Origin: a virus
Taxonomy: Duplodnaviria > Heunggongvirae > Uroviricota > Caudoviricetes
Length of the DNA stretch: 64,000 nucleotides
Direction: 5' to 3' (one strand)
Virus record (IMG/VR): IMGVR_UViG_2703718774_000012
Positions 54,770-57,700 of the stretch are shown here, piece by piece. The position numbers were made by a program, and so were the translations under genes. Position 1 is the first letter of the stretch, and every line of letters starts with the position of its first letter. The notes below the pieces were generated by a model. It did not search any database. It was not told the origin of the DNA and saw only the letters and a program-made list of their open reading frames with translations.

Positions 54770-57700
54770 ATAACCAAAACGTCATGAGCTACACCTCGAG
54801 TGTCCCCCTTACAAGACACAGAACGTCTGGCAAAAAGAGGTTCCACTCTGAAGCCACTGTCATGATAAAGCTCTCTGATGTTTGGCGCGCCACTGTTAGT
54901 AATGAGAACCTTTGCACCTCGACGATGAGCATCCGTCAACAGAGACACCAGGCGTTTTTGCTCTTCAAACTTAAAGTCATGACCGGAATAGTTCGTGAAT
55001 CCCTCTGTATTTGGAAGCGGTTCATACGGCGGATCGCAAAAGATGACATCTCCTTCTCCGGCAGCTTCAATCACCGCTGCAAAATCACCGCATACAAACT
55101 CAGACCGCCCTTCCGCACCGAGGAAGGCTTCCATCTCCTGTAATGGGAAATACGGAGTTTTATACTTCCCATAACCGACATTGAACTCACCGGCCTGGTT
55201 GTAACGCGTCAATCCGTTAAAACAATGTCGGTTCAGGAACAAAAACGCCGCTGCGCGATGTAAATCATCATAGACTTGTTTGTTAAACGCATTCCGTACT
55301 GCCAGGTATCCTTCCTGTGTGTTGTAGTCCTGGAAGAAACGATGTGCCAGAGTGATAAGTGAATGCGCCTCGCGTTGCAGAGTCTTGTAAAAGTTAATCA
55401 GGTCAGCATTCACATCATTTAGCAGATTTTCCTGGTATCCGGCATTCATGAAGACAGCTCCGCCACCAACGAAAGGTTCAATCAGGCGCTTCCCTTCTGG
55501 CAAATAGCGAAAGATTTGTTCCAGAACACCAAATTTTCCACCAGCCCATTTGAATATGGACCGTTCGAATTCTGCCGCTGGTTTAACTTTTCGCTCTTTT
55601 GTTTCACTTCCTTCTTTCTGCCGACATACGGCCTTAGTAATCCGATCGCCAATCCAGCGCATTACTGGTATTGCCATACTATTGCCGATCGCTTTGTAAC
55701 GCGGTCCGTCAGCTGCAAGCATTGCGGCCTCTTCTTCGCTTAAATCTGGATAGTGATTGTGCAGATATGCCAGTTCATCTGAATTAACTTTTTTACGCTT
55801 TTCCGTAGGGATCAACGTATGCCAATCAGGAAAACCTTGCAGCCTTTCACATTCGACAGGGGTAAGACGGCGCATTCTACCGTCGCCGAGCAATACAATT
55901 GGTGCTTCATGGTTACATGTCAAAGTTGGTGCCGAATTATCGGTTTTTATCTCAGCCCCTCCTTGCCCATGTGCCATGGCAATTATGTTTGTATCATCGC
56001 AAGTTCTGATAGCGATGTTTGAAGTATATCTGGTAGTTTCCTTCCCCTCGCCTCTGCTCGGCGCAATATTCCGGCGCACGCCTTCGAACTCAAAAAGTAC
56101 CGTTGCGGGATCGAGATCTGTTCGAGCACTTGCGACAACAAACACGCGTCGGCGTCGTTGTGCCACTCCGAAGTATTGGGCATCAAGGATTCTCCAGGCC
56201 ACTTTTCGCTGCGGTCCATAAATACAACCACACTGCGGCCACTTTGGAACATGGCAACCGGTTTTGCCATCCCACCGCCAGAACGCGTTGCTTTTTCCTG
56301 ATTCAGGTCGATCACCTGGTTCAAATGGCACATCTTCTCCAGCCAATCCGGCAAGGAAACATCCGAAGGCGTTATCTGCCGATGACAAGACTCCTGGGAC
56401 ATTTTCCCAGACGATAACGGCTGGTTTGAGAAATGACTCAGCCCGTTTGTCGTCAATTGCATTTGCAAGCTCCACATACTTTAAAGTTAGCGCGCCACGC
56501 TCATCATCAAGCCCACCACGTAATCCCGCGATACTGAATGCCTGACAGTTATGGACCACCGCACCATTGAGGATATAGGAATGATCACCTTCGACTTCTA
56601 TGTTGTATACAGTATCTAGGCCTACCGATTTAAACTCTTTGACTGTTCGTAAAAGCATTCCATGAGCCAATCTTGATTTACGTGACAATTTCTGCGGGCA
56701 GATTGTTACCTGATAATAATTCCGTTGATTTACCACGCGATCCTCGATCACTTTTTTGGGCTCAACTTCAATAAAGCTGACCGAAGAAACATAACCACAA
56801 GTCTGTGACAACCCCGCAACGCCCCAAGCAAGCGCAGAACTAACACTATTAATTCTAAATCCCGCTTTACCACTTGGTGTCCCATCAGTATCAAGATAGC
56901 CTTGTAAAAACACATGACGCAATGGATGCGACATCACCCATGCAGGGATACGCTTAGCATGGCTTAACTCGCCAAAATGTTCATTAAGCCAATTGGCATA
57001 ACACGTATCATTCAAGGTTACTTTGATGCTCCCTCGGATTTCGCTTGCCACGGAAAATATGTTTTCTGGTATGCGGCAATGAAACTTTCTCAATTTCTGG
57101 CAATTTATGCCAAAAACAACCGCCTTCTTAGATTTACCTCTCCATCTCCTAATATATCCATCGCCAACATAAGCGCCCGCAAGATACATAGCCTGTTCTT
57201 CAGACAAGAACCGAGAACAAATATCTGGAAATGCAATATTGAAATTAGTTAGAGCGCACCATTGATATCCCGGCATATCACATGCTGCTCGCCATTCCGG
57301 TTCAGACAACAACTCTCTCTTAAAATATGTGCCATTTTTCCGGGTGTTTTGGGCTTTCCACCGAACAGCCAGGAAGGGATGGTCATTGGTTGTTCTTATA
57401 CCTAAAGGCTGCCCAACGGCATTAAGTAACCCCGTATTAGCTATTTTTGAACCAACTCTTTTTACTTGTTGTAACCGCCCGAGATGACTGACTACGTAAT
57501 CACCAGGGCAAACATTTTCTATTGGTTTATAGCCATTTTTACAAAGAACCATATGCCCCGCGGTAAAACATGGTGTTCCCCCGACGAGCACGTCAGGGGA
57601 TTCGATTTCCCCAGCCAAGACTTTTTTGGCAAGTTTTTTCATGTCGCCAAGGTTGGCAACATGGGGCCAGCGGAGCGCAAGAACGGCCGATGGAAAAGGC

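What the first reader, a model, noticed from the sequence alone, without database searches (positions are those of the whole stretch)
56548..57570. Intein with LAGLIDADG homing-endonuclease motifs inserted at the catalytic PCQ motif of the Dmt cytosine methyltransferase
The dmt ORF is 1013 aa. Between GGTP and CQAFSIAG, which together make the C5-MTase motif IV, lies a 341-aa insertion. It begins with Cys (CFTAGHMVL), has block B TTNDHPF and two LAGLIDADG-like motifs ([21 protein letters not shown]), and ends [21 protein letters not shown] directly before the extein +1 Cys. Splicing would regenerate the canonical [12 protein letters not shown], so the +1 residue is the catalytic cysteine itself. 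Methyltransferase activity would therefore depend on protein splicing, and the element is likely a mobile homing intein in a phage methyltransferase.
Basis: seen in the sequence. Interest (0 to 1): 0.7.

Follow-up and report, generated by a model that had tools for sequence, protein, structure and literature searches.

The report
Homing intein splitting P1-like phage methyltransferase
A self-splicing protein insert (an intein carrying its own DNA-cutting enzyme) sits at the catalytic cysteine of the cytosine-methylase half of the Dmt protein in about a quarter to a third of P1-like phage-plasmids; it is real and intact, but it belongs to a widespread, already recognisable intein family.

Summary
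The gene is on the minus strand. Window 56548-57570 (-) is a 341-codon open in-frame insert in the 1013-aa dmt ORF (54760-57801, -). It starts with Cys, ends His-Asn and is followed by the motif IV Cys. P7 Dam (672 aa) and reference P1 Dmt lack exactly these 341 residues and read GGTP|CQAFS without a break.

The insert matches Hint, LAGLIDADG and intein C-terminal profiles. A confident AlphaFold model (pLDDT 91) matches PI-SceI, TliVMA and PI-PfuI inteins.

It belongs to a large family: 186 representative clusters at E<1e-30. Almost all members sit at the same P|CQ site of C5 methyltransferases, in several other phage groups too. Splicing residues and endonuclease residues are conserved, and all are present here.

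Among P1-like elements the intein is polymorphic: about 126 occupied versus 361 empty sites in PLSDB, and 152 of 492 dmt-carrying complete E. coli genomes. It occurs on otherwise matching backbones and carries intein-linked flanking substitutions next to the junction, as expected for homing with co-conversion.

Splicing, cleavage and C5 activity are inferred, not shown. I found no paper on this P1 intein. Verdict: a genuine new member of a known kind, of moderate interest.

The parts
54760..57801 (-). dmt precursor ORF (1013 aa, GTG start overlapping the hrdC/rdgC stop as GTGA). It is a bifunctional C5-cytosine plus N6-adenine (Dam-type) DNA methyltransferase interrupted by an intein.
   Evidence: ORF list; Pfam PF00145 plus PF02086 and NCBIfam dam/dcm; 99% DNA identity to dmt of P1 isolate OP279344; start overlap.
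57571..57801 (-). N-extein (aa 1-77): C5-MTase motif I region, ending ...LVGGTP (first half of motif IV).
   Evidence: Translation; alignment with P7 and P1; alignment to M.HhaI motif IV.
56548..57570 (-). Intein (341 aa), from C1 to H340-N341.
   Evidence: AF2 model pLDDT 91.3; Foldseek top hits PI-SceI, TliVMA and PI-PfuI, E 1e-17 to 1e-11.
57247..57570 (-). N-terminal splicing (Hint) lobe, intein aa 1-108. It includes C1 (block A) and block B T61-N-D-H64 (nt 57379-57390).
   Evidence: Pfam Hint_2; beta-rich secondary structure in the model; C1 100%, T61 98% and H64 100% conserved in 151 family members.
56695..57213 (-). LAGLIDADG homing-endonuclease domain (intein aa ~120-292; boundaries approximate). 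Motif 1 is [11 protein letters not shown] (57154-57186, D137 at 57160-57162). Motif 2 is [10 protein letters not shown] (56878-56907, D229 at 56884-56886). The conserved K206 is at 56953-56955.
   Evidence: Pfam LAGLIDADG_3; alpha/beta pattern in the model; Foldseek hits to I-SceI, I-DmoI and I-OnuI for this part; D137 94%, D229 98% and K206 99% conserved in the family.
56548..56619 (-). C-terminal splicing region (blocks F/G): [24 protein letters not shown], with D329, H340 and N341.
   Evidence: NCBIfam TIGR01443 above cutoff; phmmer match to Spl DnaX mini-intein 7cfv; N341 99%, H340 89% and D329 92-93% conserved.
56545..56547 (-). +1 Cys codon. It is the extein nucleophile for trans-thioesterification and also the catalytic Cys of C5-MTase motif IV (PCQ).
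   Evidence: alignment of the spliced sequence [12 protein letters not shown] to M.HhaI GFPCQAFSISG; 'C' follows the intein in nearly all family members and 'CQ' in 131 of 151.
54760..56547 (-). C-extein (aa 419-1013). It holds the rest of the C5-MTase (ENV motif VI, QRRRR motif VIII, variable target-recognition region at 55882-56055, motifs IX/X), followed by the Dam/D12 domain (about 54772-55566).
57571..57700 (-). Intein-linked flanking polymorphisms in the N-extein (positions -1 to about -129 from the junction). They include the Pro codon CCA (A at -1), where every empty site examined has CCT. This is a putative co-conversion tract.
   Evidence: Against the closest empty allele, 8 of 15 differences lie within 129 nt 5' of the junction (Poisson P about 5e-4).

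Best explanation
This is a canonical class-1 intein carrying a monomeric double-motif LAGLIDADG homing endonuclease. It is inserted in frame between Pro77 and the catalytic Cys of motif IV (P-C-Q) of the C5-cytosine methyltransferase domain of the bifunctional Dmt protein of a P1-like phage-plasmid from a Shiga-toxin-type E. coli background.

Inferred mechanism. The 1013-aa precursor is translated. Cys1 performs an N-S acyl shift at the Pro77-Cys1 bond. The +1 Cys attacks the thioester. Asn341 cyclises with help from His340, releasing the 341-aa intein. An S-N shift then leaves a 672-aa Dmt with an intact [12 protein letters not shown] catalytic loop. Until splicing occurs the C5 active site is split by a roughly 38-kDa domain and should be inactive. 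The C-terminal Dam domain is not interrupted.

The free intein is predicted to cut intein-less dmt alleles at the GGTP|CQAF coding sequence when two P1-like elements meet in one cell. Repair from the intein-bearing copy would then copy in the intein plus adjacent extein markers.

Shown here: the insert, its boundaries, its fold class, conservation of all key residues, its family-wide site specificity, and its presence/absence polymorphism with linked flank markers. Inferred: splicing, endonuclease activity and specificity, current homing, and C5 activity of the spliced enzyme.
For: Clean 341-aa insertion relative to P7 Dam and P1 Dmt. Hint, LAGLIDADG and intein C-terminal profile hits. AF2 pLDDT 91.3 and pTM 0.88, with the best PDB matches all intein-endonucleases: PI-SceI 2.6e-17, TliVMA 3.2e-17, PI-PfuI 2.9e-11, PI-PkoII 1.1e-9.

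Family evidence: 4287 hits at E<1e-3 and 186 at E<1e-30. Of 151 full-length matches, 151 start with Cys, 134 end HN, 131 are followed by CQ, about 138 are preceded by xP and 121 have ENV within 120 aa downstream. C1, T61, H64, D329, H340, N341 and the endonuclease residues D137, D229 and K206 are 89-100% conserved, and all are present here. The same site is occupied in Mannheimia phage 587AP2, Propionibacterium phage B22 and E. coli jumbo phage A4.

Population evidence: 129 PLSDB plasmids carry the intein (126 full length, at least 98.5% identical) against 361 with a contiguous site. Among complete E. coli genomes, 152 carry it against 337 with an empty site. All seven sampled intein alleles are open. 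Variable codons split 12 synonymous to 12 non-synonymous, against about 77% non-synonymous expected if neutral (P = 0.003); pairwise pN/pS is 0.1-0.43. Intein-plus and intein-minus plasmids share identical RdgC neighbours, and the intein is found with both short and long target-recognition cassettes. Base -1 is A in 7 of 7 intein-plus alleles and T in 9 of 9 empty alleles. None of 65 PLSDB empty sites that otherwise match the 51-nt junction has 100% identity. Differences from the closest empty allele cluster within 129 nt 5' of the junction. Intein GC is 42.7% against 54.5% and 48.3% in the exteins.
Against: There are no experimental data on splicing, cleavage or m5C methylation for this protein or any close relative, and the C5 activity of P1 Dmt itself is annotated only as 'perhaps'. 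The -1 residue is Pro, which from my own knowledge blocks or slows the first step in several laboratory inteins. The family-wide Pro(-1) argues for adaptation but was not tested. Within the P1-like clade, constraint on the endonuclease domain is weak or inconclusive: 10 non-synonymous to 7 synonymous variable codons, P = 0.07 against neutrality. This window's allele has three private substitutions (D19N, S114F, P245S). Flank haplotype sharing could partly reflect ordinary recombination and shared ancestry rather than endonuclease-driven homing. Only 16 alleles were examined base by base.
Confidence: 0.8

Rival explanations
1. The intein is splicing-competent but its endonuclease is no longer active. 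It would be a post-invasion 'resident' intein that now spreads only vertically and by ordinary homologous recombination among P1-like plasmids.
For: Constraint on the endonuclease domain within the P1-like clade is not significantly different from neutral (10 non-synonymous to 7 synonymous, P = 0.07), whereas the splicing lobes are constrained (2 to 5, P = 0.009). All P1-like copies are at least 98.5% identical, so one recent acquisition followed by recombination could explain the distribution. There is no relative between 57% and 96% identity.
Against: D137, D229 and K206 are intact here and in the family. No decayed or mini-intein derivative was seen among 126 full-length P1-like copies. There are two distinct intein-linked N-flank haplotypes, and -1 A is strictly linked to the intein. 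The intein occurs on several backbones, with both target-recognition cassettes, and in E. coli, E. albertii, E. fergusonii and Salmonella.
Confidence: 0.3
2. The insert does not splice. The 1013-aa protein persists with a dead C5 domain and works only as a Dam methylase, and the Hint-LAGLIDADG module is a tolerated or domesticated insertion.
For: C5 activity of P1 Dmt is unproven. From the literature, Dam-type GATC methylation is the function P1 needs for packaging (PMC12707154). Pro at -1 is unfavourable in some inteins (own knowledge). In the Mannheimia relative (P0010) the C-extein is cut off shortly after the intein.
Against: All splicing residues are retained and the splicing lobes are under purifying selection. 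The flanking C5 motifs (IV, VI, VIII, IX, X) remain intact in intein-bearing alleles and are as conserved as in empty alleles. The family always sits at exactly the residue that provides a +1 nucleophile.
Confidence: 0.07
3. It is not an intein. It could be a bacterial intein-like (BIL) Hint domain, or a free-standing or intron-encoded LAGLIDADG gene that merely reads in frame (compare the 'ShiLan'-type insertions in actinophage methylases).
For: The weak PDB sequence hits include a BIL domain (2lwy, E 0.18). In-frame non-intein homing insertions in phage methylases are documented (PMC11855218 and PMC9957025).
Against: The insert has the canonical C1...HN|C boundaries, blocks B and F/G, a nested endonuclease between two Hint lobes, and whole-length structural matches to PI-SceI-type inteins. 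No Rfam or intron analysis was needed because the reading frame is continuous and the boundaries fall exactly on the nucleophilic residues.
Confidence: 0.02

Closest known systems
PI-SceI (Sce VMA1 intein) and the archaeal VMA/Pol intein-endonucleases (TliVMA, PI-PfuI, PI-PkoII)
   Same: Bipartite architecture with Hint splicing lobes around a double-motif LAGLIDADG endonuclease. Cys1, His-Asn C-terminus and +1 Cys. These are the best structural matches. Insertion is at a catalytic-site motif of the host enzyme.
   Different: Only 10-17% sequence identity. The intein is smaller (341 aa against 454-537 aa), so the extra DNA-recognition regions are probably absent or reduced. The host protein is a DNA C5-methyltransferase rather than an ATPase, polymerase or RNR. 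The host genome is an enterobacterial phage-plasmid.
Uncharacterised inteins at the motif IV P|CQ site of other C5 DNA methyltransferases (Mannheimia phage vB_MhS_587AP2, Propionibacterium phage B22, E. coli jumbo phages A4/ph0011/UE-S1, and many metagenomic proteins). A 2025 preprint lists 'C-5 DNA methylase' as an intein host in actinophages (10.1101/2025.01.02.630785).
   Same: Homologous intein (27-57% identity over the full length), identical insertion point, same conserved residues.
   Different: The P1-like copies form a tight cluster of at least 98.5% identity with no intermediate relatives. Only here is the host a bifunctional C5+Dam enzyme of a model phage family, with abundant empty alleles for comparison.
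Inteins and other homing insertions in actinophage N6/N4 DNA methylases (Kelley et al. 2016, PMC5050341; Gosselin et al. 2023, PMC9957025)
   Same: Phage orphan methylase as host, LAGLIDADG-bearing intein, patchy distribution, and evidence of within-gene recombination.
   Different: Different methylase superfamily member (PF01555 N6_N4 against PF00145 C5) and a different insertion site. tblastn identity to those mycobacteriophage inserts is only about 27%.

Membership tests
Class-1 (canonical) intein | N-terminal nucleophile Cys/Ser at intein position 1 (block A) | tested here: met
   Cys1 (TGT, 57568-57570, minus strand); 151 of 151 family members have Cys.
Class-1 (canonical) intein | Block B TxxH motif | tested here: met
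   T61-N-D-H64; T 98% and H 100% conserved.
Class-1 (canonical) intein | C-terminal His-Asn (block G), block F Asp, and a +1 Cys/Ser/Thr in the C-extein | tested here: met
   D329, H340, N341 and +1 Cys419; TIGR01443 at 28.9 bits against a 15.6 cutoff.
Class-1 (canonical) intein | Hint (HINT) fold of the splicing lobes | tested here: met
   AF2 pLDDT 91.3; Foldseek probability 1.0 to PI-SceI, TliVMA and PI-PfuI. Pfam Hint_2 scores 28.2 bits, just under its 28.4 cutoff.
Class-1 (canonical) intein | In-frame insertion in a conserved host-protein motif, absent from orthologues, whose removal restores the motif | tested here: met
   Alignment with P7 and P1; restored [12 protein letters not shown] aligns with M.HhaI motif IV; PF00145 score rises after in-silico splicing.
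Class-1 (canonical) intein | Autocatalytic protein splicing demonstrated | not testable with these tools
   Needs expression with western blot or mass spectrometry, plus C1A and N341A mutants.
LAGLIDADG homing endonuclease (monomeric, two-motif) | Two LAGLIDADG helices, each ending in a catalytic acidic residue | tested here: met
   YLAGAYVGD137G and LQGYLDTD229G; D137 94% and D229 98% conserved; Pfam LAGLIDADG_3 at 30.2 bits against a 22.5 cutoff.
LAGLIDADG homing endonuclease (monomeric, two-motif) | alpha-beta-beta-alpha-beta-beta-alpha fold repeated twice | tested here: met
   Secondary-structure pattern across residues 124-292; Foldseek hits to I-SceI, I-DmoI and I-OnuI for this region.
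LAGLIDADG homing endonuclease (monomeric, two-motif) | Site-specific cleavage of the intein-less allele and gene conversion (homing) | tested here: inconclusive
   Only indirect evidence: presence/absence polymorphism, strict linkage of -1 A, and clustered flank differences. Cleavage itself cannot be tested here.
C5 DNA-cytosine methyltransferase (extein, PF00145) | Conserved motifs I, IV (PCQ), VI (ENV), VIII (QxRxR) and IX/X in order | tested here: met
   PF00145 at 125.8 bits on the spliced sequence. phmmer alignment to M.HhaI covers motifs IV-VI and IX-X. The sequence shows [28 protein letters not shown] and GNSMAIPV.
C5 DNA-cytosine methyltransferase (extein, PF00145) | m5C methylation activity and target sequence | not testable with these tools
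   The P1 record says only 'perhaps at C5 cytosine'. No paper found in the held library.
C5-MTase motif-IV (P|CQ) intein allele family | Homologous intein at the identical insertion point in other C5 MTases | tested here: met
Bacterial intein-like (BIL) domain | Hint domain without a nested endonuclease, in variable non-conserved protein regions, with non-canonical C-terminal junctions | tested here: not met
   A nested LAGLIDADG domain is present, the junction is the canonical HN|C, and the insertion is in a catalytic motif.

The most novel reading that the evidence does not exclude
The intein acts as a post-translational switch in a two-enzyme fusion. The unspliced precursor would already work as the Dam (GATC) methylase that P1 needs for packaging. 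Cytosine-5 methylation would appear only after splicing, which could be conditional, for example redox-sensitive through Cys1 and the catalytic +1 Cys, or slowed by the unusual Pro at -1. Intein-bearing P1-like phages would then time or limit their anti-restriction m5C activity differently from intein-less ones. The element would also be an actively homing intein native to E. coli's own mobile gene pool.
Probability: 0.1. Interest if true: 0.65.

Novelty: new member of a known kind. Interest (0 to 1): 0.4.

Why it matters
P1 is a classic model phage and the workhorse of E. coli transduction. From my own knowledge, E. coli is usually treated as intein-free and is used as a neutral host for intein work. 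Here a structurally complete intein-endonuclease is present in about 3% of complete E. coli genomes (152 of 5426), and even in one sequenced laboratory P1 derivative (OP279344). Hundreds of natural empty alleles sit beside it.

That makes intein homing, co-conversion and the cost or benefit of splitting a methyltransferase active site testable in the native host with standard P1 genetics. The family's obligatory Pro at -1 could also interest protein engineers, because common inteins tolerate that residue poorly (own knowledge).

For annotation, intein-bearing dmt genes are currently labelled only 'Dam family methyltransferase'. Size differences among P1-like dmt genes should be read as intein presence or absence plus swaps of the target-recognition cassette.

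It does not change how inteins are understood. The architecture, chemistry and choice of a catalytic-site insertion point are all textbook.

Tried and rejected
1. The plus-strand translation of the given coordinates is full of stops; the feature is on the minus strand.

2. Literature: ten full-text searches combined intein with P1, dmt, punavirus, RCS47, phage-plasmid, cytosine methyltransferase and C-5 cytosine (one search failed on term length). None returned a paper on this intein. The hits were off-target, or concerned actinophage N6/N4 methylase inteins, or were one preprint that lists C-5 methylase as an actinophage intein host. The library lacks most subscription-journal papers (for example the P1 genome paper and Gilcrease & Casjens 2018), so absence is not proof of novelty.

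3. The PDB sequence search gave only weak hits: Spl DnaX mini-intein 1.5e-3 and PI-PkoII 0.024. Fold comparison was needed.

4. PHROGs only matched an intein-containing 'anaerobic RNR' family, which says nothing about function.

5. I looked for an empty site carrying the intein-linked CCA Pro codon, which would suggest precise intein loss. None was found among 65 otherwise identical 51-nt sites (three checked base by base).

6. I looked for decayed or mini-intein derivatives among P1-like copies. Only one IS1-truncated copy (L013) and one with a divergent first 19 nt (H62) turned up.

7. I considered BIL-domain, in-frame intron or free-standing HEN, and domesticated-insert readings and rejected them (see the rival explanations).

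8. Intein-versus-extein identity correlation across the family (r about 0.5) neither proves nor excludes horizontal transfer, so I did not rely on it.
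Full report
**1. Observation**

The ORF list shows one long ORF on the minus strand, 54760..57801, 1013 aa with a GTG start. The plus-strand translation of the reported interval is full of stops. The minus-strand translation of 56548-57570 is an open 341-codon stretch. It begins [10 protein letters not shown] and contains [18 protein letters not shown] and [10 protein letters not shown]. 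It ends [21 protein letters not shown] and is followed at once by CQAFSIAG.

Profile searches support the motifs statistically:
- Pfam LAGLIDADG_3 (E 5.5e-7, above cutoff), Hint_2 (E 2.9e-6, 0.2 bits under cutoff) and a weak Intein_splicing match.
- PF00145 (C5 methylase, in four pieces) and PF02086 (D12/Dam) for the host protein.
- NCBIfam intein_Cterm TIGR01443 above its cutoff, plus weak matches to intein-containing RNR, GyrA, RFC and DnaB models.

**2. It is an insertion relative to orthologues**

Megablast against phage genomes shows the window's dmt is 99% identical along its whole length to dmt of a P1 isolate (OP279344). P7, reference P1 and others match only in two or three pieces. 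The 1023-nt segment alone is found in only three distinct phage genomes (five records): OP279344, RCS47 and vB_EcoM-Ro157c2YLVW.

The protein alignment shows that P7 Dam (672 aa) and reference P1 Dmt (754 aa) lack exactly residues 78-418, with GGTP joined to CQAFSIAG.

Removing the insert in silico gives a 672-aa protein. Its PF00145 match becomes continuous across motif IV and rises from 104.9 to 125.8 bits. Its [12 protein letters not shown] aligns with GFPCQAFSISG of M.HhaI, the catalytic-loop PCQ motif, followed by ENV and motifs IX/X. The +1 residue of the intein is therefore the methyltransferase's catalytic cysteine; this rests on that alignment and on established knowledge of C5-MTase motif IV.

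**3. Fold**

An AlphaFold2 model built with nine homologues is confident (mean pLDDT 91.3, pTM 0.88, no segment below 50). It has beta-rich N- and C-terminal parts around an alpha/beta core. Foldseek against the PDB returns only intein-endonucleases at the top: PI-SceI 2.6e-17, TliVMA 3.2e-17, PI-PfuI 2.9e-11 and PI-PkoII 1.1e-9. After them come free-standing LAGLIDADG enzymes (I-SceI, I-DmoI, I-OnuI) for the central part. Sequence-only comparison with the PDB is weak: Spl DnaX mini-intein C-terminus at 1.5e-3 and PI-PkoII endonuclease region at 0.024.

**4. Family and site specificity**

The word-indexed search found relatives at 47-57% identity. All carry PF00145, for example a Mannheimia haemolytica prophage protein seen on 578 contigs. 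It also found more distant ones (29-32%) and a mini-intein version at the same P|C site.

The exhaustive representative search found 4287 proteins at E<1e-3, 1571 at E<1e-10 and 186 at E<1e-30. Among 151 full-length matches:
- all begin with Cys;
- 134 end His-Asn;
- 131 are followed by Cys-Gln;
- about 138 are preceded by x-Pro;
- 121 have ENV within 120 residues downstream.

In a MAFFT alignment of these inteins (median 34% identity to the window), the splicing residues are conserved: C1 100%, T61 98%, H64 100%, D329 92%, H340 89% and N341 99%. So are the endonuclease residues D137 (94%), D229 (98%) and K206 (99%). The window's copy has all of them.

tblastn against phage genomes finds the family in Mannheimia phage 587AP2 (48%), Propionibacterium phage B22, an EBPR siphovirus, Pseudomonas phage Lana, and Lactococcus and Aeromonas phages. 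It is also in E. coli jumbo phages (A4, ph0011, UE-S1, TH47; about 27%) annotated as cytosine methyltransferases. In phage A4 the junctions read GGFP|CFPAGT...IVVHN|CQAWSVAG.

This is therefore one member of a large intein family dedicated to motif IV of C5 methyltransferases.

**5. Population evidence for mobility**

The window itself is a P1-like phage-plasmid closest to plasmids of E. coli O26 and O111 strains (99.1-99.4% over 24 kb).

Counts:
- The intein DNA occurs in 129 PLSDB plasmids, 126 of them full length and all at least 98.5% identical. Hosts are E. coli, E. albertii, E. fergusonii, Salmonella and Shigella.
- It occurs in 152 of 5426 complete E. coli genomes, almost always on plasmids.
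- A 400-nt 'empty site' query finds 495 PLSDB plasmids with this dmt region, 361 of them with a contiguous site.
- The same query finds 492 E. coli genomes, 337 with a contiguous site.
- Roughly a quarter to a third of P1-like dmt genes therefore carry the intein.

Intein presence is uncoupled from the neighbourhood. Identical RdgC proteins lie upstream of both intein-plus and intein-minus dmt genes: WP_000472529.1, WP_032167110.1 and WP_061355005.1. The intein also occurs with both versions of the variable target-recognition cassette.

At the DNA level I compared 7 intein-plus and 9 intein-minus alleles:
- The third base of the Pro codex before the junction is A in every intein-plus allele and T in every empty allele.
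- Among 65 PLSDB empty sites matching the window's 51-nt junction, all have exactly one mismatch. In the three I checked it is this base.
- Intein-plus alleles carry two different sets of extra, mostly synonymous substitutions just 5' of the junction: C-22/T-48/T-104/G-118, or G-7/A-10/G-13/G-16. Neither set appears in any empty allele sampled.
- Against its closest empty allele, the window has 8 of 15 differences within 129 nt 5' of the junction and none within 197 nt 3'. The Poisson P is about 5e-4.

These are the footprints expected from double-strand-break repair with co-conversion of donor extein sequence. With 16 alleles, however, ordinary recombination cannot be excluded.

The intein is also AT-richer (42.7% GC) than its exteins (54.5% and 48.3%), consistent with foreign origin.

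All seven sampled inteins are open reading frames. Variable codons split 12 synonymous to 12 non-synonymous, against about 77% non-synonymous expected under neutrality (P = 0.003). Constraint is clear for the splicing lobes (2 non-synonymous to 5 synonymous, P = 0.009). It is only suggestive for the endonuclease domain (10 to 7, P = 0.07).

**6. Mechanism (inferred)**

The steps are standard class-1 splicing:
1. N-S shift at Pro77-Cys1.
2. Trans-thioesterification to Cys+1.
3. Asn341 cyclisation.
4. S-N shift.

This yields a 672-aa Dmt and a free 341-aa endonuclease. Before splicing the C5 catalytic loop is interrupted. The Dam domain (aa 746-1010) is untouched, so the precursor may already methylate GATC, the activity P1 needs for packaging (PMC12707154). 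Whether the C5 half of Dmt is active at all is unknown; the P1 record says 'perhaps'.

One caveat, from my own knowledge, is that Pro at -1 is poorly tolerated by common laboratory inteins. Its near-universality in this family suggests adaptation, but this is untested.

**7. Comparison with what is known, and novelty**

The architecture and chemistry match PI-SceI-type inteins. Phage methylase inteins are documented for the N6/N4 family in actinophages (PMC5050341 and PMC9957025). A 2025 preprint lists C-5 methylase as an actinophage intein host (10.1101/2025.01.02.630785).

I found no paper describing the intein in P1-like dmt, but the searchable library omits most subscription journals. Database annotation calls these genes simply 'Dam family methyltransferase'.

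I classify it as a new member of a known kind. It is genuine, well supported and experimentally convenient, since a lab P1 derivative carries it. It is not conceptually new.

**8. Verdict**

- Observation: confirmed.
- Interpretation: supported, with the qualifications given above.
- Confidence that it is a splicing-competent intein restoring the C5 active site: about 0.8.
- Confidence that its endonuclease is still actively homing: roughly even to somewhat better.
- Interest: 0.4.

Noticed in passing
window 55882-56055 (-), dmt aa 583-640; compare L002/L004 and L005: The target-recognition region of the C5 domain is a swapped cassette. The window, P7 and OP279344 have a short form. Reference P1 and RCS47 have an unrelated form 82 aa longer. 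pM121-2 has a third size class (a 2589-nt intein-less dmt). All four combinations of intein presence and cassette type occur, so dmt is a mosaic of at least two independently exchanging modules.
   Followed up: partly
window 53841-54087 (-): Three tandem tRNA genes lie downstream of dmt: Thr-TGT, Tyr-GTA and Asn-GTT. The P1 and P7 records annotate only Thr and Asn at this position, 2-5 nt apart, so this element appears to have gained a tRNA-Tyr between them.
   Followed up: no
P0010 / Mannheimia phage vB_MhS_587AP2 (H164, KP137435.1 27587-28606): The closest named non-P1 relative (48% identity) has an intact-looking intein, but its C-extein stops 21 aa after the +1 Cys, and the record annotates two genes. 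It may be a disrupted methylase that still carries the intein. The protein is seen on 578 contigs.
   Followed up: no
window 57571-57573 (-), Pro77; family-wide: The -1 extein residue is Pro in about 138 of 151 family members. From my own knowledge, Pro at -1 blocks or slows N-terminal cleavage in commonly used inteins. This family may therefore be naturally adapted to splice after proline.
   Followed up: no
L003 (OP279344.1 61684-64725): A sequenced laboratory P1 derivative ('del res del mod', host MG1655 Z1) carries the intein and the short target-recognition cassette. The reference P1 c1-100 mod749::IS5 has neither. Laboratory 'P1' stocks therefore differ at dmt.
   Followed up: partly
window 57514-57516, 57229-57231, 56836-56838 (-): intein codons 19, 114, 245: This window's intein has three private amino-acid changes (D19N, S114F, P245S) relative to the six other P1-like alleles sampled. 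None is at a known catalytic residue.
   Followed up: partly
window 57798-57801 (-): The dmt GTG start overlaps the TGA stop of the upstream hrdC/rdgC gene (GTGA). This suggests translational coupling, as in the P1 and P7 annotations.
   Followed up: no
L013 (NZ_CP070953.1 61975-62294): One E. fergusonii plasmid keeps only the first 320 nt of the intein, which is cut off next to an IS1 transposase. It was the only clearly degraded copy seen among 129 plasmid hits.
   Followed up: partly
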